A stretch of DNA of 32,000 bases from an uncultured Nitrososphaerota archaeon (GCA_964480775.1 CAYZRF010000004.1:56816-88815); one strand, 5' to 3'; positions 2,568-32,000 are shown, counted from the first letter of the stretch. Notes: generated by a model not told the origin, from the letters alone. Translations and numbers: made by a program.

Positions 2568-5183
2568 TTAAAGCCTTGAAAAAAGCTTACCCAGCCACGA
2601 AGTTGATGTTTTAGCCCCCAAAGCCATAGCCGACAGTGCAAGGACCGAGGTTGATGCCATCGCTAGTGCGCTACTTCCAAGCATGTAAGAAGCGAGTACT
2701 AGCGCCAGGGATGAGGTAACACTAAGGAGAACGATCCTAAGTGACCTACGGCCCTTGAGTCTTTCATCTATTCTTCCGAGCATATACAGCACAGGTGACA
2801 TGTATATGACCCCGAGAATCGCGCAGCTAACCACCTCCATCAGCAAGAAACCGACTTCGATGTTAGCCTTGGCCAAGGGTTCAAACAGCCTTTGGCATAT
2901 CCTTAGAGTGTAGATTATCGGATACAGGAATGCTCTCATAAACGTCCTTAGACCCTTATTTTCCTCTATGGCTGATGCCACGGCGGGACTCCAAGAGTAG
3001 TAGAACTTATTGAAGGCACGCATGAAGGACCTGCCGAGAAAGCTTCTCATGACGATGTTGTCTCTGAACCCTCTCAGGAGCTGAACCTCATCAGACAGCT
3101 CGCTACCGTAGGTTGTGGTTGCAACAACGCATTTACCATGTTCGCTAATTACTATTGTTGCGGTTGCTGAACTTGATGCTCCCCCGCCTTCTCCTTTGAT
3201 GAAGAAGGTATAGGTTCCTGGTGTACTACCAGCTTTCACGTTTAGAGTGGAGATTCCGGTTGGTAAGATGGATGACTGATCGAAGCTCCAGGTGAAATCA
3301 GATGGAAGCCCCTCGACACTTAGATGCACGGTCTCAGCGGTTCCAGAGGTAAGCTCCACCTCCACCTTAAACGAGATGGTTCCTCCGGGTCCTACGTTTG
3401 CTTTCGGAGGCTTGACGCTCAGCACGAAGTTAAATGAGGAAGGAGTGGGAGAAGGAGAGGGCGATGGAGTTGGCGACGGGGTGGGCGAAGGCGTAGGAGA
3501 AGGAGAGGATGGTGTAGATGGAGGTGCGGGTGGTGGAGGAGCAGGATTTATGATCAGGGTCGCGGTGTCGCTGTGGGTCTTTCCTCCTCCACTGGCTGTG
3601 ACCGTAAACACAAAAGTTCCGGTCGTTTCCCCTGTACTGATCACGAGAGAGTAGGTGTAGGTGCCAACAGGGTTCAGCTGGTACGTTACATCCCCGGGCA
3701 GTCCTGAAACCGTTAGGCTAAGGGTTCCTGAGAAACCTCCTGTCGGAGTTATTGAAACTGTGTAGGATGCCTGTTTGCCTGCTTCCACGCTATTTTCTCC
3801 AGGAGATATACCTATGAGGAAATCTGGCTCCTCTGGCATGGCTATTGCGAAGGGACCTGCTCTATCCGTGTCGTATATGTCTAAAAACATGCCAAAGCAA
3901 TTGCTTATCACCTTAACCTCGATCAGACAATTGCTTGACTCTATCTCCGGAACCTCCCAGTCGTAACTCATCGTTCCGCCGGTGTTATCTATGCAGTCTA
4001 TCTTCGTCCAAGAAAATCCGCCATCGAAAGAGAATCTTATTTCAACCTTATTGCCTGGAGCCGAGGTCTCCCACCTTATCCTATACGTTTCGCCAGCTGT
4101 TATGGTTTCTCCTGTCACTGGCGCTATAAGGTGTATCTCATACTCTGTGGTGATCTTGAAAGTTCCAGCGCTCACATCCGTACAGTACTCTTCGGACGGA
4201 GTTCCGCAGCTTGACTTCCAAACAGCCTTTATCTTGCAAATGGAGGAGTCCTCTGTGGGAACCGTCCAATCGTATGAGCCGCTTGTAGATGGGTTCGGGA
4301 CGCAATCTATGAGATGATAGCTGGCTCCCCCGTCAACCGAGTAATACAGCTCGACAAATCCTCCTGGTTCCGATGTCAACCATCTTATTGTGAAGGTTTC
4401 ACCAGCCTTTAGGCTCTCTCCCCCGCTTGGATCCGTCAATGAGATCTTCATGTAATAAACCACGACGCGCGGTCGATCATCCCCTGAACAACATGGCACG
4501 CTTCCTCCTTCTCTAGATAGGAAATTTGCCCTGCAAGGATCTTCAGAAAGGAGCATCAAGCCGTAGTTCTCGTGATCGCCGTTGACAACTCCTTGCACGA
4601 ACTCAGTTATGTCCCAATCCACAAGCGAACAAGAGCTATCACTTACCGTCGTGCTTGCCGTTGGGTTGACGTGATCTCCTCCCTCATGCAGCCAATCTAG
4701 CGTACAGGTCCTCCTCCTCCAGGTCACGCAGTTCTCAGTAAAACCCCTAGGAAGCCTTTTTGCGCGTATTGTCATTGTGCCCCCAGTAGGATTAAACGAT
4801 TGTAGCCTTAGATAGAGCGTTGCCTCTATTACCTTTGCTCCGGCTGGAATAGAGCCTAAGGGAAAGTAGAGAACCGCTCTATATGTATCTCCACTGTATT
4901 TTCCAACGTGTAGATACCCATCAGATCCATAGTTGGTGTCCGGAGTTACGTCAGTAATAAAAGCGTCCTCCGTGGCGTATATCGTTTGCATTCCCATATC
5001 CATCATAGTTTGCATTCCTGAGTCCCTCCCCGAATCCTCAAACCCTGTTCCCATGCTTGATGTCAAATCTATGGTGTATTTGGCGCTTGCGGAGGATGAG
5101 AGAATGTCATATGTCCCATGCACGCTTCCGACTATGGTGGCGGCCAACAAAATTACTAGGAAGAAGGCTAACCTGCTGGACAT
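2568..5183 (-). CDS. Large secreted, membrane-anchored surface protein. It has a signal peptide, a DNRLRE-like domain, two pairs of beta-sandwich repeats, a Pro/Ser/Thr linker, a C-terminal Cys-box module and TM helices.
   Basis: 871 aa. The N-terminus is hydrophobic (MSSRLAFFLVILLAATIVGSVHG). Residues about 70-245 follow the DNRLRE-domain pattern (TNYGSDGYLHVG...YRAVLYFPL...AKVIEATLYLRL...VTW...NYGLML). Tandem homologous domains lie at about aa 246-326 and 349-429 (GE(S/T)..AGET..IRW.TS.PG..VE...S.DGG.S....DC......G..SYDW.VP...S..C.I). A second domain pair lies at about aa 455-546 and 584-680. The PT-rich linker is aa 547-583. CVVATTTYGSELSDEVQLLRGFRDN is followed by several hydrophobic helices. 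Confidence 0.8.
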   Translation of the reverse strand: MSSRLAFFLVILLAATIVGSVHGTYDILSSSASAKYTIDLTSSMGTGFEDSGRDSGMQTMMDMGMQTIYATEDAFITDVTPDTNYGSDGYLHVGKYSGDTYRAVLYFPLGSIPAGAKVIEATLYLRLQSFNPTGGTMTIRAKRLPRGFTENCVTWRRRTCTLDWLHEGGDHVNPTASTTVSDSSCSLVDWDITEFVQGVVNGDHENYGLMLLSEDPCRANFLSREGGSVPCCSGDDRPRVVVYYMKISLTDPSGGESLKAGETFTIRWLTSEPGGFVELYYSVDGGASYHLIDCVPNPSTSGSYDWTVPTEDSSICKIKAVWKSSCGTPSEEYCTDVSAGTFKITTEYEIHLIAPVTGETITAGETYRIRWETSAPGNKVEIRFSFDGGFSWTKIDCIDNTGGTMSYDWEVPEIESSNCLIEVKVISNCFGMFLDIYDTDRAGPFAIAMPEEPDFLIGISPGENSVEAGKQASYTVSITPTGGFSGTLSLTVSGLPGDVTYQLNPVGTYTYSLVISTGETTGTFVFTVTASGGGKTHSDTATLIINPAPPPPAPPSTPSSPSPTPSPTPSPTPSPSPSPTPSSFNFVLSVKPPKANVGPGGTISFKVEVELTSGTAETVHLSVEGLPSDFTWSFDQSSILPTGISTLNVKAGSTPGTYTFFIKGEGGGASSSATATIVISEHGKCVVATTTYGSELSDEVQLLRGFRDNIVMRSFLGRSFMRAFNKFYYSWSPAVASAIEENKGLRTFMRAFLYPIIYTLRICQRLFEPLAKANIEVGFLLMEVVSCAILGVIYMSPVLYMLGRIDERLKGRRSLRIVLLSVTSSLALVLASYMLGSSALAMASTSVLALSAMALGAKTSTSWLGKLFSRL
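3435..3545 (-). repeat. Low-complexity coding repeat (SPTP/SPSP Pro-Ser-Thr linker) inside the surface protein gene
   Basis: Encodes PAPPPPAPPSTPSSPSPTPSPTPSPTPSPSPSPTPSS. On the plus strand it appears as imperfect GGNGAN-type short-period repeats. Confidence 0.85.
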
Positions 5184-6377: not shown

Positions 6378-6833
6378 CTACTTCATAATTCCTGTTCCTA
6401 ATAGCAGCATTCGTAAAACAGCCCCCGGTGGGGTTCTGAACAGGCCTTGCCATGGAGTTAGTTCAAATAAAAAAGCACCTTTTTTGTTTGTAAGCGTGAA
6501 AACGTACACATCGTCAGCCAACCTTATCCTCCTTTTGTTTTCTCCTTGGTAGTGGTAAGAGAACGTGAGCAAGAAATCTGCCGAGACCCTGTCTCCAATG
6601 ATGAATTCTACCAACATCCTGGCAATTGTTCTGCAATCAATTGGGACATACCCACCTCTATCTCTTATCTTAACAGAAATTCTCCTGTAAACGTGCTGGG
6701 TTTTTCTCTTTGAAGAGATGCTGGTTAGCACAAGTTCAACACAGCCGTCCAGCTTCAACAAGCCAAATAGGAATTTTACGACCCGCTTCTCTTCCTTGCC
6801 GAGGTTAACGCTGTGAACTTCTCTAACACGCAC
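6378..6833 (-). CDS. Hypothetical protein translationally coupled to hef
   Basis: 151 aa, same strand as hef. Its GTG start (6833-6831) shares one nucleotide with the hef TAG stop (6835-6833). The composition looks like a normal beta-rich protein. No family recognised. Confidence 0.5.
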   Translation of the reverse strand: MRVREVHSVNLGKEEKRVVKFLFGLLKLDGCVELVLTSISSKRKTQHVYRRISVKIRDRGGYVPIDCRTIARMLVEFIIGDRVSADFLLTFSYHYQGENKRRIRLADDVYVFTLTNKKGAFLFELTPWQGLFRTPPGAVLRMLLLGTGIMK

Positions 6834-21103: not shown

Positions 21104-21232
21104 TGGGCCCGCCGGGACTTGAACCCGGGACCTCCGGCTTTCTTAGATTGTCCGGAGCGCAACCATATAAGGCTTACGCGTTGGCTCTCGAGAGCCGAAC
21201 TCGGCGCTCCATCCAGGCTGAGCTACGGGCCC
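21104..21232 (-). tRNA. tRNA with anticodon UAU (tRNA-Ile, AUA decoder) carrying two BHB introns
   Basis: The minus strand reads GGGCCCGTAGCTCAGCCTGGATGGAGCGCCG [28-nt intron, 21174-21201] GCCTTATA [26-nt intron, 21140-21165] AGCCGGAGGTCCCGGGTTCAAGTCCCGGCGGGCCCA. The spliced 75-nt product folds as a clean cloverleaf with anticodon arm CCGGC-CTTATAA-GCCGG. The anticodon TAT lies at 21169-21167. Both introns sit in 3-nt bulge / 4-bp helix / 3-nt bulge motifs that I folded by hand. Confidence 0.8.
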
Positions 21233-26943: not shown

Positions 26944-27021
26944 GCTCCGGTGGTGTAGTCCGGCCAAGCATAGGGGCCTTTCGAGCCCCAGACCCGGGTT
27001 CAAATCCCGGCCGGAGCACCA
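26944..27021 (+). tRNA. tRNA-Glu (UUC), CCA encoded
   Basis: GCTCCGG-TG-GTGT-AGTCCGGCCAA-GCAT-A-GGGGC-CTTTCGA-GCCCC-AGAC-CCGGG-TTCAAAT-CCCGG-CCGGAGC-A-CCA. Hand-folded cloverleaf. Confidence 0.9.
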
Positions 27022-27059
27022 ATTCATTATCAAGGATAAAAAGAGTCGTCTAAGGTTGT

Positions 27060-27181
27060 GCGGGGGTAGCCAAGCCAGGTCCAAATCTTCAAGGTTTCCC
27101 TCCTAGGGATGGCCAAAGGCGCTCGGTTCAGGGCCGAGTGGGCGTAGGCCCGCGCGGGTTCAAATCCCGCCCCCCGCACCA
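27060..27181 (+). tRNA. tRNA-Leu (CAG), class II, with an about 33-nt non-canonical intron in the D-loop; CCA encoded
   Basis: Acceptor GCGGGGG/CCCCCGC, anticodon arm CTCGG-TTCAGGG-CCGAG (CAG at 27129-27131), long variable arm TGGGCGTAGGCCCGC and T-arm GCGGG-TTCAAAT-CCCGC. The D-region AAGCCAGGTCCA...AGGC contains 33 extra nt. My best BHB-like fold has the 4-bp helix 27078-27081/27111-27114 flanked by 3-nt bulges, which places the intron at 27084-27116. Confidence 0.8.
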
Positions 27182-27399
27182 CTGGCTTTTACAATCTGGC
27201 CCGAAAGTGTTTAGATAACTCTCATCTTTCCCTTTGGGAATTAAACAACGGGTTTTTAACCTTGAAATCTATCTTAGAAGGAACTTAGGAGTCTCAGAAA
27301 CAATAATAAATCTGGCGATACCACCTTATCAAATAAACAGCAAACTTCCGATTTGTGTGAAACCAAAAGGGTTATGAATCAGATGTAGTTAATCATAGT

Positions 27400-27472
27400 A
27401 GCCCCGTGGTGTAGCGGCCAAGCACGCCGGGCTTTGGACCCGGCGACCCCGGTTCGAATCCGGGCGGGGCTA
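27400..27472 (+). tRNA. tRNA-Gln (UUG)
   Basis: AGCCCCG-TG-GTGT-AGCGGCCAA-GCAC-G-CCGGG-CTTTGGA-CCCGG-CGAC-CCCGG-TTCGAAT-CCGGG-CGGGGCT-A. No encoded CCA. Confidence 0.9.
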
Positions 27473-27524
27473 TTTTCTTATTTTACTATATTTAATTGCT
27501 TTTTTGGCATAAAAGAGACCGGAG
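27473..27524. terminator. T-rich spacer between convergent tRNA-Gln and tRNA-Arg (likely bidirectional oligo-T terminator)
   Basis: TTTTCTTATTTT and GCTTTTTTGG lie on the plus strand. TCTCTTTT and CCAAAAAAGC lie on the minus strand, immediately after each tRNA 3' end. Confidence 0.4.
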
Positions 27525-27840
27525 CGGGCCCGGCGGGACTTGAACCCGCGACCCCCGGCTCCGCAGGCCGGTGCTCTAATCCTCCTGAGCTACGGGCCCT
27601 AGTATTTCTAACACTTCCACCATTACTTAAAGTGTTCTCATGTTGTTCTCTAACGTCATGCTTAGTATTACCTTCTAATCTACTTATCCAATCTTCTAAT
27701 GCTCTTGTTAATACGGTACTTAATGATAGTCCATAATACTTGGCTTTATCATGTAGTCTTTTAGGAATAACAACTGTTGTTCTAATAGTAGGCTCCTCAT
27801 TAAACAACTCTTTTCTGCCTTTCTTAGTTCTCTTAACCAT
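27478..27840 (-). CDS. Int(N): N-terminal fragment of the split SSV-type integrase (RHH-like N-terminus), reading across attL into antisense tRNA sequence
   Basis: ATG at 27840 gives MVKRTKKGRKELFNEEPTIRTTVVIPKRLHDKAKYYGLSLSTVLTRALEDWISRLEG...NTRARSSGGLEHRPA. It then continues as antisense-tRNA read-through (EPGVAGSSPAGP...) to the stop at 27478. The track ORF begins further upstream at 27927. Confidence 0.7.
   Translation of the reverse strand: MVKRTKKGRKELFNEEPTIRTTVVIPKRLHDKAKYYGLSLSTVLTRALEDWISRLEGNTKHDVREQHENTLSNGGSVRNTRARSSGGLEHRPAEPGVAGSSPAGPAPVSFMPKKQLNIVK
27525..27599 (-). tRNA. tRNA-Arg (GCG); its 5' half is the attachment site of the integrated element
   Basis: The minus strand reads GGGCCCG-TA-GCTC-AGGAGGATTA-GAGC-A-CCGGC-CTGCGGA-GCCGG-GGGTC-GCGGG-TTCAAGT-CCCGC-CGGGCCC-G. 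Positions 27560-27599 are repeated at 31946-31985. Confidence 0.9.
27560..27601. repeat. attL (42 bp; tRNA-Arg nucleotides 1 to about 40 plus 2 upstream nt)
   Basis: TCCGCAGGCCGGTGCTCTAATCCTCCTGAGCTACGGGCCCTA is identical to 31946-31987. Confidence 0.9.
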
Positions 27841-28052
27841 ACTAATACACCTTAGACGTAAGTATGATCTTGAATGTATTAAATGTATTTTGATGCTATT
27901 GTATGATATAATGTATCGTGAAAACATGATTTTACGACATAGTATGTAATTTGCTCTAACATCATGGTCTTTACTTGATTTAATGATACATAGTTCATAA
28001 ATGAATATTCCAATATATATGAAGGTATTCAGTATAGGAAAAATGAGTAGTA

Positions 28053-28062
28053 TTTATATATA
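28053..28062 (+). promoter_or_regulatory. TATA-like box for the element ORF at 28090
   Basis: TTTATATATA lies 28-37 nt upstream of ATG 28090, in the divergent region between Int(N) and the 195-aa ORF. Confidence 0.4.
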
Positions 28063-28089
28063 GGTATACGAAATTTAATATCGAACATT

Positions 28090-28677
28090 ATGTCTAACTT
28101 GAATATTCAAGTTGAATATGAATATGTACCAAGAGCTAGTAGAAAGAAGTTACCATACACAATGAAGCACACAATTAGACTAGATAGAGAGACACTTAAG
28201 GTATTGAAGGTTCTAAGAGAGAAGTTAGGTCTACGTGATTATAGGTCTGTTATTAACTATCTAATCTTAACTGATAATGAGGTGGTAAAGAAACTTCTTT
28301 CATCAATTGATGATCCATATCAGAAACTTAAGATCTTAAGAGCTAAGAAAGTAATTGATGATCCAACTACATTAGCACTTATTGAACTACACAGTAAGAG
28401 GTCTGATAAGAAGAGACATGAACATGAGATTATAGCTGACACTAGTACACAAATAGAGAAAGTAAAGAGACTTAGAGGTAAGGAATTATATGATAGACTT
28501 CAAGAGTTGAAGGAACAAGATCAATTAATGAAAGAGAGACTAAGGAATGAGAGACTAAGACAAGATCAAATAGTTAATCTAATGATAGAATATGGTATAT
28601 CAGAGTATGATGCTAAGAGAATACTAGAACTATCTGAGACTGAGAGAAAGAAGGTTCTAACTAAACTCAAACACTAG
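28090..28677 (+). CDS. Element ORF, 195 aa: possible RHH-like N-terminal DNA-binding segment plus a highly charged coiled-coil tail
   Basis: HTIRLDRETLKVLKVLREKLGLRDYRSVINYLIL fits a beta-strand/helix/helix pattern. The C-terminal half is K/E/R-rich (KELYDRLQELKEQDQLMKERLRNERLRQDQ). No family recognised. Confidence 0.5.
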   Translation: MSNLNIQVEYEYVPRASRKKLPYTMKHTIRLDRETLKVLKVLREKLGLRDYRSVINYLILTDNEVVKKLLSSIDDPYQKLKILRAKKVIDDPTTLALIELHSKRSDKKRHEHEIIADTSTQIEKVKRLRGKELYDRLQELKEQDQLMKERLRNERLRQDQIVNLMIEYGISEYDAKRILELSETERKKVLTKLKH

Positions 28678-28707
28678 ATAAAAAAGAGAGAATAGAGGTG
28701 GTGCAAT

Positions 28708-28731
28708 ATATATAGTAGATCTCTACTATAT
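28708..28731. repeat. 24-bp palindrome TATATAGTAGA-TC-TCTACTATATA in an element intergenic region
   Basis: 11-bp perfect inverted arms with a 2-nt spacer. The half-site TCTACTATAT recurs at 28769-28778. Confidence 0.7.
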
Positions 28732-28871
28732 AAGACTAACTCAATCTACAATGACCTATATTATACTATTCTACTATATCTAGTAAGTCTATATTATATA
28801 TGTCTATCTCTAGTAAAAGATCAGACCACCGCACTCTTAGCAAAATTAAGATCTAATAGAGGTGGTACTGC

Positions 28872-29540
28872 TTGACATCAAAGCCATTTTACTATAAGAC
28901 TAAAAACAACATAGTGTTCTATTCTGTTTACTTTAGTGACCTCAAATACAAAGAAGTTTATGAATACCTTCAAACAGTGCTTTGGAGTCTTAACATAGAT
29001 GAGATACAGAAGAGCATAATGGATGATGCATTGACTGAAATACATAGAGACAGAAGAAGAAACAAACCACTACCTATTAACGCAGATCAAGGTTACTTCT
29101 TTGAAGCAGTAGTAAAAGCAGGAACACAATACCAATATATGTACAAATCTCATTATAGTGGAATAAAGTGGTATGGAGATCATGGAATACGTGCATGGTA
29201 TGGCCATAAAGGATCTGACCTAATATTATATGTCGATGACAGACCTCTAACTATTGAATGTAAGTTCTTCTTAGATTCTACATACTATAATCATATTCAC
29301 ATGAAGAATATTCTATCTTCTGACATCTTCATTACAACTGAATTATTAAAACCAAGAGATCTCATTAAGGCTAGAGTATCTGTAATGGAATGTGGTAAGC
29401 CTAAGTCTAAAGACCTTTATGACATATTGATGTGGGTAGAAACTACTTTATCTAATCACATGACTCATGAACTAGATGATATACTTAGATCAGCAATATT
29501 GAGAAAATATCCTGATAGAATAACCTTAGTAAATGACTAA
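28872..29540 (+). CDS. Element ORF, 222 aa: hypothetical, possible PD-(D/E)xK nuclease-fold signature
   Basis: TTG start preceded by the SD-like GAGGTGGT. The pattern is E (FFEAVVK), then about 40 aa, then GSDLILYVDDRPLTIECKF (D...E-x-K). This is a motif-level guess only. Confidence 0.45.
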   Translation: MTSKPFYYKTKNNIVFYSVYFSDLKYKEVYEYLQTVLWSLNIDEIQKSIMDDALTEIHRDRRRNKPLPINADQGYFFEAVVKAGTQYQYMYKSHYSGIKWYGDHGIRAWYGHKGSDLILYVDDRPLTIECKFFLDSTYYNHIHMKNILSSDIFITTELLKPRDLIKARVSVMECGKPKSKDLYDILMWVETTLSNHMTHELDDILRSAILRKYPDRITLVND

Positions 29541-29691
29541 CTGAAGTTATTACAACTTTCAAAAAGCACACAAATAACATCCTTATTAGACGACTATAAC
29601 TACAATCGTATTCCAAATAACTAGAGAAAAATATTTACTAAACAAGAGTATAGAGGAAATCCCCAAAGGGTGCAATTTTCAAGACTGTTGA

Positions 29692-29735
29692 AAATACAAA
29701 GTACAAATACTACAAATACAAAGAACAAATGAGCA
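29692..29735. repeat. Two tandem about 22-nt units rich in ACAAAT in the convergent intergenic region of the element
   Basis: AAATACAAAGTACAAATACTAC and AAATACAAAGAACAAATGAGCA match at 16 of 22 positions. The inverted copy TTGTATTTGT lies at 29799-29808. Confidence 0.6.
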
Positions 29736-29875
29736 AACTACATACAACATGATATTTGATCCAACATAGTAGACTCATCATATTAGCTACTCAGTATATT
29801 GTATTTGTTGAATGTTGAAGTTAATCCACGCTATATTATGATTAAAAATAACTCAAATGTATTCCAAGTTAACTT

Positions 29876-31024
29876 CTATTTTCTAATTTTGTTGAGTACA
29901 TATTTGATAAAGTTCTTTACAATGAAAATAATCATGGCAGACATCAATGATGCAAAGATTTTTGCAAAGATGTCTTCGATATAGAATGCAATTTTTTCTT
30001 TAAGATAATGAAGAATGAACGGAAATGCAAGGACTCCTACTAAAATTGATATAAAGATTTCAGGCTTAGCAATATATTGTAACGTTTTAAGAAACCTTAT
30101 TTTATTCTTTTGATGCCAAACTATTGGGGTTGTATGCTCTAATGCAAACATTTTGAGAGCGTCAAAATCATTACCTTCGTGATTTCTTAATTCACTTACA
30201 TAATACCTTAAATTTGTAGTTAGCATTTCCATCAATTCTTCACTATATTTAATTCGATCTATTTCATTAGGATTCTGAGAGTAGATCATTATTTTCAAAA
30301 TAGTGAAGGCATCTTTTTGAATAAGTTGAGCCGCAACTCTTTCTTCATATCTTCTGAAAACTACGAATTGCACTCCATCGTTAGTTAATTCTTTCATTTT
30401 TTCAAAACCTAAAACATTCATAATTTCCCCAAAGTTTCTATAAAGACTGTTAAGATCTGTCATGACTTTAAAAACAACTTTGTATGGCTCTTCGCGAATT
30501 GGAATACCTATTATTCTTTTAGATATGGCTGTTGATAACCAATACCCTATTAGACCGGGAAGAAAATAGTAAAACGAAACTACAATGTAGTAGAGCAAAT
30601 TCCACGTTCTATAGTACAAAATGAAATAAAATAGAAGTGATGAGATTATAGAAAAAGAAGCACAATATTTAGTATAAATTAGCGTCTCATATACAAGAGA
30701 AAGCAAAGAACCTAAAGGTACCGTTAATGTTAAAAAAAGAACTCCTATTAATAGCAAAAATTTTGCATAGAACTCTAAGGATTCAAAGTAGAAGGTTTCT
30801 CCTAGTTTTGTATAGAGAATATAAGCTGAATTACTTAGAATAAGACCAACAGCAATTGAGGTAGCTAAAGTAAATAAGCTTTTTTGGATGTTTGAATGCT
30901 CTTCTCTTACATATACGTGTTGGAACAAATCAGGATAATTTTGGAGTAATTCTATGAATGAAGATATGTCTTTTCTCTCTCTTGCTTCTTTGAGTTTCTT
31001 CCTTATTTCTACCTTATCAGGCAT
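29876..31024 (-). CDS. Element ORF, 382 aa: polytopic membrane protein with a central soluble domain, hypothetical
   Basis: A charged N-terminus is followed by about 4 hydrophobic helices (aa about 50-170), a soluble region (about 175-320) and 2 C-terminal helices. It lies 65 nt downstream of the integrase stop on the same strand. No family recognised. Confidence 0.55.
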   Translation of the reverse strand: MPDKVEIRKKLKEARERKDISSFIELLQNYPDLFQHVYVREEHSNIQKSLFTLATSIAVGLILSNSAYILYTKLGETFYFESLEFYAKFLLLIGVLFLTLTVPLGSLLSLVYETLIYTKYCASFSIISSLLFYFILYYRTWNLLYYIVVSFYYFLPGLIGYWLSTAISKRIIGIPIREEPYKVVFKVMTDLNSLYRNFGEIMNVLGFEKMKELTNDGVQFVVFRRYEERVAAQLIQKDAFTILKIMIYSQNPNEIDRIKYSEELMEMLTTNLRYYVSELRNHEGNDFDALKMFALEHTTPIVWHQKNKIRFLKTLQYIAKPEIFISILVGVLAFPFILHYLKEKIAFYIEDIFAKIFASLMSAMIIFIVKNFIKYVLNKIRK

Positions 31025-31089
31025 CTCTTAACTAACTTTTTCTTAAAGATTTTTTGATATAAAAGCATCTTTATGCTTGCGTAAGAAAC

Positions 31090-31926
31090 TCAAGTTAGTA
31101 CTTTAGGATTAGCTCTTTGATATATTTCTCTTAGAACATCTATTGAATAATCAGCATAGTGTCTAGCAATAACGCCTTTAGGTATTCTACCACAGAAGGC
31201 ATCTATGTAATGTGATGGTACTCCTTTCTTAGCTAACTCTACATTAAACCATAACCTACAAGTCTTCAATGTTATGTTAAGACCAGTCTTCTTTATAGCC
31301 TTATGAAATATGTATGAGTCTTTACCACATGAATATGGAAATAGTCTATTAGACCTAGTCTTTCTAGTTCTCAGATATTTCTTTAGCACATGTAAAGCTT
31401 CATCATTACAGAAAGTTATGAATGAATGTTTGGTTCTAGATCCATCATAGCACTTAGGAATGATAAGACCAGTATCTACGTCTATATCATCTACTGTAAG
31501 ACTCAATAGCTCTTTCTTTCTTAGTCCACTAGTACAAGCAACTAGGAATAATGCTTTCTCTTTCAACGTATCCAATGCATTATAGAATGTTCTTAGTTGT
31601 TCAATACTAGGCACTCTCTTAGGTGTATATGTCTTAGGTGGATACTTGAAACCATCAAGTAAGTTTTCTCTATTCACATACCTAAAGACATGCTTTAGAC
31701 TTGCTAAGTAGTTCTTGTATGTTCCACTAGACTTAGTGTTCTTGATCGATAATAAGAACTCTCTTATATTCTCTTTACTTGCTATATATGGATTGTATTT
31801 CTCTAGAAACTTCTTAGCTACTCTAATAGTCTGAAGCATTGTTCTCTTACTAAGTTGTAAATCAACTAGTAGGTATGTCTTGAACTCATCTATATTGAAC
31901 TCATCTATACAGTCTCCATTTTGCAT
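31090..31926 (-). CDS. Int(C): catalytic C-terminal part of the SSV-type tyrosine recombinase
   Basis: 278 aa from the internal ATG. The frame stays open upstream through attR to the window end. ACTSGLRKKELLSL (catalytic Arg) and KTCRLWFNVELAKKGVPSHYIDAFCGRIPKGVIARHYADY align by eye to the SSV1 integrase blocks ALESGVRLSEIL and [39 protein letters not shown]. Confidence 0.85.
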   Translation of the reverse strand: MQNGDCIDEFNIDEFKTYLLVDLQLSKRTMLQTIRVAKKFLEKYNPYIASKENIREFLLSIKNTKSSGTYKNYLASLKHVFRYVNRENLLDGFKYPPKTYTPKRVPSIEQLRTFYNALDTLKEKALFLVACTSGLRKKELLSLTVDDIDVDTGLIIPKCYDGSRTKHSFITFCNDEALHVLKKYLRTRKTRSNRLFPYSCGKDSYIFHKAIKKTGLNITLKTCRLWFNVELAKKGVPSHYIDAFCGRIPKGVIARHYADYSIDVLREIYQRANPKVLT

Positions 31927-31945
31927 AATAACGTCTTTATTGGTA

Positions 31946-31987
31946 TCCGCAGGCCGGTGCTCTAATCCTCCTGAGCTACGGGCCCTA
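31946..31987. repeat. attR (42 bp; orphan 5' half of tRNA-Arg without the 3' half)
   Basis: Identical to 27560-27601. The sequence to its left (TTATTGGTA) is not tRNA-like, so this is not a second tRNA gene. Confidence 0.9.
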
Positions 31988-32000
31988 ATTATAAGAAGAT

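What the first reader, a model, noticed from the sequence alone, without database searches (positions are those of the whole stretch)
27478..31987. Integrase gene split by its own integration: the two end fragments reconstitute one 378-codon SSV-type integrase across att
A perfect 42-bp direct repeat (27560-27601 and 31946-31987) brackets an AT-rich block. The offset between the copies is 4386 nt, which is divisible by 3.

The minus-strand ORF starting at ATG 27840 reads through attL as ...NTRARSSGGLEHRPA. I translated the same frame through attR. It gives IRARSSGGLEHRPA-DTNKDVI-MQNGDCIDEF... with no stop between the repeat and the 278-aa catalytic ORF.

On an excised 4386-bp circle, attP would therefore lie inside a single 1137-nt gene: 93 N-terminal codons including att, a 7-codon junction, then 278 codons. 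This is the SSV-type behaviour, in which the int gene is partitioned on integration, rather than the pNOB8-type, in which int stays intact.

Both halves are free of stops and the repeats are identical. This argues for a recent or still mobilisable element. Int(C) keeps its own ATG 20 nt from attR, so a truncated catalytic protein might still be made in the integrated state.
Basis: partly seen in the sequence, partly recalled or inferred. Interest (0 to 1): 0.8.

Follow-up and report, generated by a model that had tools for sequence, protein, structure and literature searches.

The report
Self-split integrase flanking archaeal mobile element
A 4.4-kb mobile element sits in an archaeal tRNA-Arg gene and cut its own integrase gene in two when it inserted, which is a textbook archaeal behaviour seen here in a little-studied integrase family.

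Summary
A perfect 42-bp direct repeat (27560-27601 and 31946-31987) brackets a 4386-bp AT-rich block (about 31% GC against about 44% in the host). The two minus-strand ORFs at its ends read the repeat in the same frame and join into one 378-codon tyrosine recombinase gene.

Three independent lines support the 'integrase split by its own integration' reading:
- A metagenome contig from a 92%-identical relative carries the uninterrupted tRNA-Arg site.
- At least 17 of 25 homologous integrated elements reconstitute an ORF across their own repeat.
- Intact homologues exist as single genes with the same domain order.

The attP-encoded peptide lies in a predicted disordered linker.

Three caveats:
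- By sequence the enzyme is nearer XerA and pNOB8 integrases than SSV1 or pT26-2 integrases. It is SSV-type in behaviour, not clearly in ancestry.
- The repeat is the 5' half of the tRNA, the rarer geometry, so the element supplies the tRNA's upstream region.
- Current mobility is unproven.

Gene-splitting ('suicidal') integrases are well described, so this is a new member of a known kind. Interest is moderate to low.

The parts
27524..27599 (-). Intact tRNA-Arg(GCG), the integration target. Its 5' 40 nt lie inside attL.
   Evidence: ARAGORN. Rfam tRNA, 66.4 bits. Identical tRNA at the empty site in L085, 10278-10352.
27560..27601 (.). attL: the left copy of the 42-bp direct repeat (tRNA positions 1-40 plus 2 nt upstream).
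   Evidence: D3, 100% identity.
27478..27840 (-). int(N) as it stands in the integrated state. From ATG 27840 it encodes a ribbon-helix-helix (RHH) domain (aa 20-58) and a linker, then reads in frame through attL and the tRNA to a stop at 27478-27480. Only 27602-27840 plus att belong to the original gene.
   Evidence: All 18 N-terminal domains of the family hit Pfam CcdA, an RHH family; best E 2.3e-11, this one 0.0049. AlphaFold2 pLDDT is 86-91 for aa 21-50. Homologue P0142/L089 is 57% identical in protein.
27841..27900 (-). Probable int promoter and ribosome-binding region. TTTAATACA and AAGGTG motifs lie upstream of ATG 27840.
   Evidence: Read from the sequence. TTAATACAT and TAGGTG are conserved in L089 although the region is only 53% identical overall. 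Inference only.
27602..27680 (-). Int(N)-side arm of attP. It codes the disordered linker (codons 56-79) yet is 91% identical in nucleotides to the L089 relative, against 58% for the RHH-coding part. It contains TTTAAGTA at 27624-27631, which is -32 to -25 from the tRNA start, a possible element-borne tRNA promoter.
   Evidence: identity by segment. (linker pLDDT below 50). The promoter role is inferred, not shown.
28090..28677 (+). Cargo ORF, 195 aa, function unknown.
   Evidence: No hits in Pfam, PHROGs, NCBIfam or PADLOC. No homologue in the 84 related loci.
28678..28871 (.). AT-rich intergenic region with a palindrome and short direct repeats. Candidate operator or origin.
   Evidence: D6, D8, I4. 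Function not tested.
28872..29540 (+). Cargo ORF, 222 aa, an ORFan.
   Evidence: The only database match is itself, on an 88,815-bp NCBI contig. The structure model is unusable, pLDDT 35.
29876..31024 (-). Cargo ORF, 382 aa, hydrophobic and probably a membrane protein, an ORFan.
   Evidence: The only database match is itself. No family hits; two hits in PADLOC, both weak (E 0.0094 and 0.049).
31090..31945 (-). int(C): the rest of the linker, a SAM-like core-binding domain and the catalytic domain. The annotated ORF starts at ATG 31926. The frame is open from attR onward.
   Evidence: Pfam PF00589 42.9 bits and PF16795 32 bits. R236, K266, K321-x-x-R324, H356 and Y357 are conserved. AlphaFold2 pLDDT is above 90 over aa 111-260 and most of the rest to 378 (two 10-residue blocks at 73 and 78). 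XerA is the top Foldseek hit.
31880..31909 (-). Perfect 15-bp tandem duplication inside int(C), encoding IDEFN-IDEF, 37-66 nt from att.
   Evidence: D12. Meaning unknown.
31946..31987 (.). attR: the right copy of the repeat, an orphan 5' half of the tRNA.
31988..32000 (.). Host flank, the native upstream region of the tRNA gene.
   Evidence: In L085 this 13-nt flank directly abuts att and the whole tRNA (55 nt at 100% identity; sequence).

Best explanation
A 4386-bp integrative element (one att copy plus 27602-31945) inserted into the tRNA-Arg(GCG) gene of an uncultured archaeon. Insertion was by site-specific recombination catalysed by the element's own tyrosine recombinase.

The element's attP is a 42-bp copy of the 5' 40 nt of the tRNA plus 2 nt. 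It lies inside the integrase reading frame, in the segment coding a disordered linker between an N-terminal ribbon-helix-helix (RHH) domain and a XerA-like two-domain recombinase body.

Recombination with attB therefore split the 378-codon gene:
- int(N), carrying the RHH domain and linker, now runs into the restored tRNA at attL.
- int(C), carrying the core-binding and catalytic domains, sits behind the orphan tRNA half at attR.

Because the shared segment is the 5' half of the tRNA, the element now provides that half and everything upstream of it. The native tRNA promoter is left facing int(C).

Excision would rebuild the gene on a 4386-bp circle. It probably needs a full-length integrase supplied in trans.

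Shown: the repeat, the frames, the insertion relative to an empty site, the family-wide pattern and the domain architecture. Inferred: the catalysis itself, the position of strand exchange, tRNA expression from element DNA and present mobility.
For: - Repeat, tRNA and frames.
- GC break at the element.
- Empty attB in a relative: L085 is 92.2% identical over 1724 nt of left flank. The 13-nt right flank, att and the whole tRNA are contiguous there.
- Recombinase identity and catalytic residues.
- Family-wide partitioning: 25 loci have direct repeats flanking Int(C)...Int(N), most with a tRNA at one copy. In at least 17 the reconstructed ORF runs 26-138 codons upstream of att. A worked example is L003, a 2800-bp element in tRNA-Ser.
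- Intact collinear single genes: L008, L011, L015 and L065; P0045, P0064, P0077, P0098 and P0100.
- RHH domain.
- att-coded residues 80-94 fall in the pLDDT<50 segment 61-104.
- The closest int(N) relative (L089, 83% nt identity) has the same geometry at tRNA-Arg(CCG).
- Literature on type I ('suicidal') integrases: PMC8371274, PMC7253208, PMC2926602.
Against: - No attP (circular) junction and no second copy of this element was found. The att 42-mer scan gave 0 viral contigs and 1 metagenome contig, the empty site.
- Overall sequence similarity is higher to non-partitioning recombinases. pNOB8 Int gives blastp E 2.5e-21 and XerA gives E 3.6e-14. SSV-RH Int gives only 1.6e-10 and pT26-2 Int only 1e-4.
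- The element has no recognisable replication, capsid or transfer gene. All three cargo ORFs are unassignable, so its life cycle outside the chromosome is unknown.
- The window ends 13 nt beyond attR, so the right flank is known only by homology to L085.
Confidence: 0.9

Rival explanations
1. There are two separate genes. A small RHH (CopG/CcdA-like) regulator gene and a pNOB8-type integrase gene flank an intergenic attP, and the open common frame across att is a coincidence. The integrase would then be intact as the 278-aa ORF.
For: The 278-aa ORF has its own ATG and contains complete core-binding and catalytic domains. The best sequence matches are non-partitioning enzymes, pNOB8 Int and XerA. 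The Pfam pattern resembles pNOB8 Int, with PF00589 above a marginal PF16795 hit.
Against: Homologues occur as single uninterrupted genes of 345-380 aa with RHH, linker, tRNA-like stretch and recombinase. At least 17 of 25 independent integrated relatives give an ORF that continues upstream across att when rebuilt, far more than chance frame agreement would allow. The Int(C) ATG is not conserved. pT26-2 Int, a proven partitioning enzyme, has the same weak CcdA-like N-terminus.
Confidence: 0.04
2. The element is a stranded relic. It integrated as described but can no longer move, because neither half of the integrase is active and no helper is present. It is now simply host DNA on its way to decay.
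For: Published in vitro work finds Int(N) and Int(C) fragments inactive (PMC8371274, sections 27 and 29). No attP junction or second copy was found. Several relatives are visibly decayed: L048, L049, L069, L079 and L083.
Against: The two att copies are identical although only attL is under tRNA selection. Both int halves and all three cargo ORFs are open. The GC contrast with the host is undiminished. A 92%-identical relative lacks the element. All of this points to a recent insertion. Rescue in trans by related elements is documented for this class (PMC7253208), and a related integrase (P0002, 71% identity) is present in the same metagenome as the empty site.
Confidence: 0.35
3. The arrangement is an artefact or a non-mobile duplication: either a chimeric assembly joined at a repeated tRNA half, or a local duplication of a tRNA fragment unrelated to any recombinase.
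For: The source is apparently a metagenome-style contig (88,815 bp). Repeats are classic misassembly points.
Against: The same repeat-flanked, split-integrase layout recurs in about 25 independent contigs from different studies. The frames on both sides match. The sequence between the repeats is compositionally uniform and distinct from the host. The right flank beyond attR continues exactly as at the empty site.
Confidence: 0.02

Closest known systems
Type I ('SSV-type', 'suicidal') archaeal integrases: SSV1/SSV2 Int, pTN3 Int, pT26-2 Int (She et al. 2001-2004; Badel et al. 2020, PMC7253208; review PMC8371274)
   Same: attP lies inside the int ORF. Integration into a tRNA gene splits int into int(N) and int(C) at the two ends of the element, with int(N) next to the intact tRNA. 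The att is 40-50 bp. The catalytic signature is R...K-x-x-R...Y. No separate excisionase gene is seen. Close relatives differ in target tRNA.
   Different: The catalytic region is only distantly similar: SSV-RH Int 23% identity, pT26-2 Int barely detectable. PF16795 scores 32 bits here against 135-187 bits in true SSV and pT26-2 integrases. Related integrases occur in MAGs of Bathyarchaeia, Methanomethylicia, Nitrososphaeria and Hadarchaeota, not in Sulfolobales or Thermococcales. This element's own host was not identified. The att is the 5' half of the tRNA.
pT26-2 integrase (Thermococcus sp. 26/2 plasmid pT26-2, GU056179)
   Same: A partitioning integrase with an N-terminal RHH-like segment. 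It shows a weak Pfam CcdA hit at aa 22-62, like aa 20-56 here.
   Different: The family HMM scores it at only 40 bits. It sits on a 21.6-kb plasmid with a conserved core gene set. The element here is 4.4 kb and carries only ORFans.
pNOB8-type (type II) integrases and archaeal XerA
   Same: These are the highest sequence and structural similarity over the core-binding and catalytic domains: pNOB8 Int at 128 bits against the family HMM, and XerA 4a8e as the top PDB hit by both sequence and Foldseek. The same Pfam combination is seen.
   Different: Those enzymes keep their gene intact. Their attP or dif lies outside the gene. pNOB8 Int has Y-x-x-R where this protein has K-x-x-R. They lack the RHH-linker N-terminus. 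The XerA NCBIfam score is 68.7 against a cut-off of 220.
NitEve-E3 of Nitrososphaera evergladensis and other cryptic integrated elements of Thaumarchaeota (Krupovic et al. 2019, PMC6563490)
   Same: A cryptic integrated element with a split SSV1-like integrase outside the hyperthermophiles. That paper also records tiny elements (from 2.6 kb) and one 5'-distal tRNA integration.
   Different: NitEve-E3 encodes an MCM helicase, which this element does not.

Membership tests
Type I / SSV-type ('suicidal') integrase, functional class | attP lies within the integrase ORF, and integration leaves int(N) and int(C) at opposite ends of the element. | tested here: met
   Same result in homologous elements. 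Intact single-gene homologues exist.
Type I / SSV-type ('suicidal') integrase, functional class | The element is an insertion into a tRNA gene, bounded by a 40-50 bp att duplication. | tested here: met
   42-bp direct repeat on tRNA-Arg. Empty site in L085.
Type I / SSV-type ('suicidal') integrase, functional class | Catalytic signature R...K-x-x-R...Y (She et al. 2004, as quoted in PMC8371274 section 8). | tested here: met
   R236, K321-T-C-R324 and Y357/Y360. The family has Q (26), K (11) or H (2) of 41 sequences at position 321.
Type I / SSV-type ('suicidal') integrase, functional class | The full-length protein alone catalyses integration and excision. | not testable with these tools
   Needs biochemistry or genetics.
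SSV / pTN3 / pT26-2 sequence families (PF16795-dominated catalytic domain) | Strong match to Pfam Phage_integr_3 and clustering with SSV, pTN3 or pT26-2 integrases. | tested here: not met
   PF16795 scores 32 bits (cut-off 27), against 135 bits for SSV-RH Int and 187 bits for pT26-2 Int. pNOB8 Int itself scores 27.8. Blastp and HMM scores are higher to pNOB8 Int than to SSV-RH or pT26-2 Int. No formal phylogeny was made.
pNOB8-type (type II) integrase | The integrase gene stays intact after integration, with attP outside the gene. | tested here: not met
   The gene is split here and in relatives.
pNOB8-type (type II) integrase | Catalytic signature R...Y-x-x-R...Y. | tested here: not met
   K (or Q in relatives) stands where pNOB8 Int has Y.
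XerA chromosome-dimer resolvase | Meets the NCBIfam equivalog cut-off and is a chromosomal housekeeping gene acting at dif. | tested here: not met
   NF040815 scores 68.7 bits against a cut-off of 220. The gene lies in an AT-rich insertion that is absent from a relative.
Ribbon-helix-helix (CopG/CcdA-like) DNA-binding domain (N-terminus only) | Strand-helix-helix motif recognised by RHH profiles. | tested here: met
   18 of 18 family N-termini hit PF07362 (best E 2.3e-11, this protein 0.0049), and one hits RHH_1. The family profile's top PDB hit is the antitoxin Rv0298; CopG appears further down at E about 1. AlphaFold2 gives two confident helices at 27-35 and 40-55. Below the Pfam cut-off for this single sequence.

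The most novel reading that the evidence does not exclude
Gene-splitting ('suicidal') integration may not be confined to the SSV/pTN3/pT26-2 clade of hyperthermophile elements. It may also be the normal mode of a large, uncharacterised integrase family whose catalytic body is closer to XerA and pNOB8. That family has an RHH domain tethered by a disordered, att-encoding linker, and it is spread across MAGs of Bathyarchaeia, Methanomethylicia, Nitrososphaeria, Hadarchaeota and Methanoperedens. This would mean the trait arose more than once or is much older and broader than the 'single recent event' proposed in the 2021 review. The nucleotide-conserved linker arm next to att could double as a recombinase arm site and as a tRNA promoter.
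Probability: 0.35. Interest if true: 0.55.

Novelty: new member of a known kind. Interest (0 to 1): 0.35.

Why it matters
For annotation, the two 'hypothetical' or 'XerD-like' ORFs and the AT-rich block should be read as one integrated element with a partitioned integrase. The same pattern can be used to delimit many small elements in MAGs of uncultured archaea, where Int(C) fragments are routinely labelled as XerC/XerD.

For biology, this case gives a clean natural example with filled and empty sites. A suicidal integrase targets the 5' half of a tRNA here, so an essential tRNA gene depends on element DNA for its upstream signals.

The case also points to a broad family in which the origin and host range of gene-splitting integrases could be re-examined. 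None of this overturns current understanding.

Tried and rejected
- Exact-protein look-ups for the source contig failed for Int(C) and ORF222. The cluster look-up showed only an unnamed NCBI contig of 88,815 bp. The host organism was therefore not identified and the sequence beyond 32000 was not seen.
- The att 42-mer found no attP junction in viral or metagenome contigs.
- The cargo ORFs gave nothing in Pfam, PHROGs or NCBIfam, only two weak ORF382 hits in PADLOC, nothing in the 84 related loci, and only self-hits among 5.8 billion proteins for ORF222 and ORF382.
- My guess that ORF222 is a PD-(D/E)xK nuclease could not be tested. The single-sequence AlphaFold2 model has pLDDT 35.
- My guess that ORF195 starts with an RHH motif is not supported: 1.6 bits against the family RHH profile.
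- I looked for repeated arm-type motifs in the conserved arm next to att. GTTAGA occurs only twice, and no 6-mer recurs more than twice, so no repeat enrichment. I make no claim.
- The PF16795 hit turned out not to discriminate SSV-type from pNOB8-type, because pNOB8 Int also passes the cut-off.
- I found no paper describing the RHH N-terminus of these integrases. This is absence in the searched library only.

Full report
**1. The observation**

The 42-bp perfect direct repeat is present at 27560-27601 and 31946-31987, spacing 4386. The left copy overlaps tRNA-Arg(GCG), which lies on the minus strand at 27524-27599. It covers tRNA positions 1-40 plus two upstream bases.

The minus-strand ORF from ATG 27840 reads the repeat as RARSSGGLEHRPA. 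The same frame through the right copy gives IRARSSGGLEHRPA-DTNKDVI-MQNGDC... with no stop before the 278-aa ORF at 31926..31090. Joining 27840..27602, one att copy and 31945..31090 gives 1137 nt, or 378 codons.

The bracketed block has 29-34% GC, against 41-51% elsewhere in the window. The 'divisible by 3' argument is only a proxy for 'same frame relative to att'.

**2. It is an insertion**

Scanning public metagenome contigs for the 42-mer found one contig, L085 (JGI Ga0180300_10001194). It aligns to the window's left flank at 92.2% identity over 1724 nt. It also matches att plus the 13 bases to the right of attR at 100% over 55 nt.

In L085 that right flank, att and the complete tRNA-Arg are contiguous, with nothing in between. 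This is the empty attB site of a close relative. It excludes the 'ancestral fixed locus' alternative.

Upstream of the tRNA in L085 is a TTAAAT box at -27 to -22, preceded by a small zinc-ribbon ORF.

**3. What the split gene encodes**

The fused protein hits Pfam Phage_integrase (42.9 bits) and Phage_integr_3 (32 bits). It has sub-threshold SAM-like core-binding hits and a weak CcdA (RHH) hit at aa 20-56. It also hits PHROG integrases.

R236, K266, K321-x-x-R324, H356 and Y357 are conserved across the family.

An AlphaFold2 model built on a 41-sequence alignment has mean pLDDT 84. It shows three regions:
- a confident strand-helix-helix N-terminus (aa 20-58);
- a disordered stretch (aa 61-104, pLDDT below 50);
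- a well-folded body (aa 105-378).

The top structural matches of the body are archaeal XerA, then Tn1549, integron, lambda and Cre recombinases.

The att-encoded residues (80-94) fall in the disordered linker. This explains how a protein can tolerate having a piece of tRNA sequence translated in its middle. It also explains how relatives can carry different tRNA pieces there.

**4. Comparative test of the split**

The 19 closest database proteins are all Int(C)-sized. Many begin with translated tRNA sequence, such as GFEPTRP and PRAGLEP.

One of them sits on L003. There a 2800-bp element in tRNA-Ser(GCT) is bounded by a 65-70-bp repeat, and an RHH-containing ORF at the far end reads the repeat in the same frame as Int(C).

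A scan of one genome per GTDB species returned 80 loci. They come mostly from MAGs of Bathyarchaeia, Methanomethylicia, Nitrososphaeria, Hadarchaeota and Methanoperedens.

In 25 loci (this window included) a direct repeat links the region just upstream of Int(C) to a site 1.5-10 kb downstream, most with a tRNA at one copy. Rebuilding attP in silico gives an ORF that continues 26-138 codons upstream of att in at least 17 of them. Several begin with the same RHH motif. A few begin with a zinc-ribbon instead, and five are decayed.

Uninterrupted genes with the collinear order RHH, linker, tRNA-like stretch, recombinase exist in L008, L011, L015 and L065. They also exist among cluster representatives P0045, P0064, P0077, P0098 and P0100.

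All 18 N-terminal domains tested hit Pfam CcdA, best E 2.3e-11. The family profile's top PDB hit is the RHH antitoxin Rv0298; CopG appears further down at E about 1.

The 'two separate genes, in frame by chance' alternative is therefore very unlikely.

**5. Geometry**

In most relatives the repeat is the 3' part of a tRNA read antisense by int. Here, in L066 (tRNA-Asp) and in L020 (tRNA-Arg CCG) it is the 5' part, which is 3 of about 25 loci.

The closest int(N) relative is P0142 on L089, with 57% protein and 83% nucleotide identity. It has the same co-directional arrangement, running into an intact tRNA-Arg(CCG).

5'-distal tRNA integration is known but uncommon (PMC6563490, section 7).

The consequence is that the restored tRNA's 5' half and all its upstream DNA are element-derived. 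A TTTAAGTA box lies at -32 to -25, inside the int(N) coding sequence.

Between this window and L089, nucleotide identity differs sharply by segment:
- RHH-coding part: 58%;
- the 76 nt coding the disordered linker just before att: 91%;
- the tRNA: 97%.

That pattern suggests a constraint at the DNA level, either a recombinase arm or a tRNA promoter. This is an inference. A search for repeated motifs there was not significant.

**6. Family placement**

By behaviour and by the K-x-x-R motif this is a type I ('SSV-type', 'suicidal') integrase as defined in PMC8371274 and PMC7253208. By sequence it is closer to non-partitioning enzymes:

| Reference | Result |
|---|---|
| pNOB8 Int | blastp E 2.5e-21; 128 bits against the family HMM |
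| XerA (PDB 4a8e) | E 3.6e-14 |
| SSV-RH Int | blastp E 1.6e-10; 86 bits |
| pT26-2 Int | blastp E 1e-4; 40 bits |
| SSV1 catalytic domain (PDB) | E about 0.9 |

The PF16795 hit does not discriminate, because pNOB8 Int also passes its cut-off, whereas SSV-RH and pT26-2 integrases score 135-187 bits.

pT26-2 Int shares the weak CcdA-like N-terminus.

I therefore file the protein under the functional class, not under any of the three named suicidal sequence families. No formal phylogeny was made.

**7. The rest of the element**

There are three ORFs of 195, 222 and 382 aa. The last is hydrophobic. None has a convincing family assignment (the only hits are two weak PADLOC matches for ORF382) or a homologue in the related loci. 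ORF222 and ORF382 match only themselves in the large protein collection.

No replication, capsid or transfer function is recognisable. A 190-bp AT-rich spacer with a palindrome and short repeats (28678-28871) is a candidate control or origin region.

Relatives are just as small, at 2.5-4.5 kb. These are cryptic integrative elements whose extrachromosomal life is unknown.

**8. State of the copy**

The att copies are identical, all ORFs are open, the GC contrast is strong and a 92%-identical relative has an empty site. Together these point to a recent insertion.

Nothing shows present mobility. Published work finds split halves inactive and excision dependent on a full-length integrase from a related element (PMC8371274, sections 27-31).

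Int(C) here contains the whole XerA-like body. Its ATG is not conserved in homologues.

Close Int(C) relatives (P0001 and P0002, 64-71% identity) begin with a translated 3' tRNA segment read antisense; for P0002's contig L090 I read this by eye as tRNA-Thr, which ARAGORN did not call. The closest Int(N) relative keeps a tRNA-Arg 5' half. This fits the modular exchange of int(N) and int(C) proposed by Badel et al. 2020.

**9. Verdict**

The finding is correct and well supported. It describes a known kind of system in a poorly charted integrase family and with the less common 5'-half geometry. Novelty: new member of a known kind. Interest: about 0.35.

Noticed in passing
L011:9926-11068 and L011:18535-18841: An intact full-length integrase gene sits in a 2-Mb Bathyarchaeota contig. 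Its first 277 nt are repeated at 85% identity 8.6 kb downstream, next to tRNA-Val(GAC). This looks like two related elements integrated in tandem, re-forming a hybrid intact int at their junction.
   Followed up: partly
L045:3474-3533, 5052-5111, 6715-6771: Three copies of a ~57-60-bp att-like repeat lie about 1.6 kb apart around an Int(C), ending at tRNA-Ser(TGA). This is an array of very short or degraded tandem insertions.
   Followed up: no
window 31880-31909: A perfect 15-bp tandem duplication (TTGAACTCATCTATA x2) inside int(C) encodes IDEFN-IDEF at the linker/core-binding boundary, 37-66 nt from att. It is in frame, and its meaning is unknown.
   Followed up: no
window 28678-28871: An AT-rich spacer between ORF195 and ORF222 contains a near-perfect palindrome (TATATAGTAGATCTCTACTATATA), a second related copy, and two AATAGAGGTGGT motifs. 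It is a candidate operator, origin or pair of ribosome-binding sites.
   Followed up: no
window 26944-27599 and 21104-21232: A cluster of four tRNA genes (Glu, intron-containing Leu, Gln, Arg) is present. A further 129-nt intron-containing tRNA was found by Rfam but missed by ARAGORN. The three intron-less tRNAs have 67-75% GC in a genome of about 44% GC, which hints at a thermophilic host.
   Followed up: partly
window 2568-5183 (minus strand): An 871-aa ORF carries a DNRLRE domain and a CFI-box-CTERM sorting-signal domain. It lies in a locally GC-rich (about 50%) stretch and is probably a surface protein.
   Followed up: no
L043 and L078: Integrase homologues (47% and 33% identity) lie on contigs binned as Candidatus Saccharibacteria and Desulfobacterales. 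This reflects either mis-binning of archaeal contigs or transfer between domains.
   Followed up: no
L090 (JGI Ga0180300_10094675) and L085 (Ga0180300_10001194): The closest Int(C) relative (P0002, 71% protein and 79% nucleotide identity) lies behind what looks, by eye, like the 3' part of a tRNA-Thr read antisense (ARAGORN calls no tRNA there). It comes from the same metagenome as the empty tRNA-Arg site. Related elements with other targets therefore circulate in that community.
   Followed up: partly
window 31988-32000 with L085:10200-10277: After integration, the native tRNA-Arg promoter (TTAAAT at -27 to -22 in L085) faces the orphan tRNA half and int(C). It could transcribe the catalytic fragment.
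   Followed up: no
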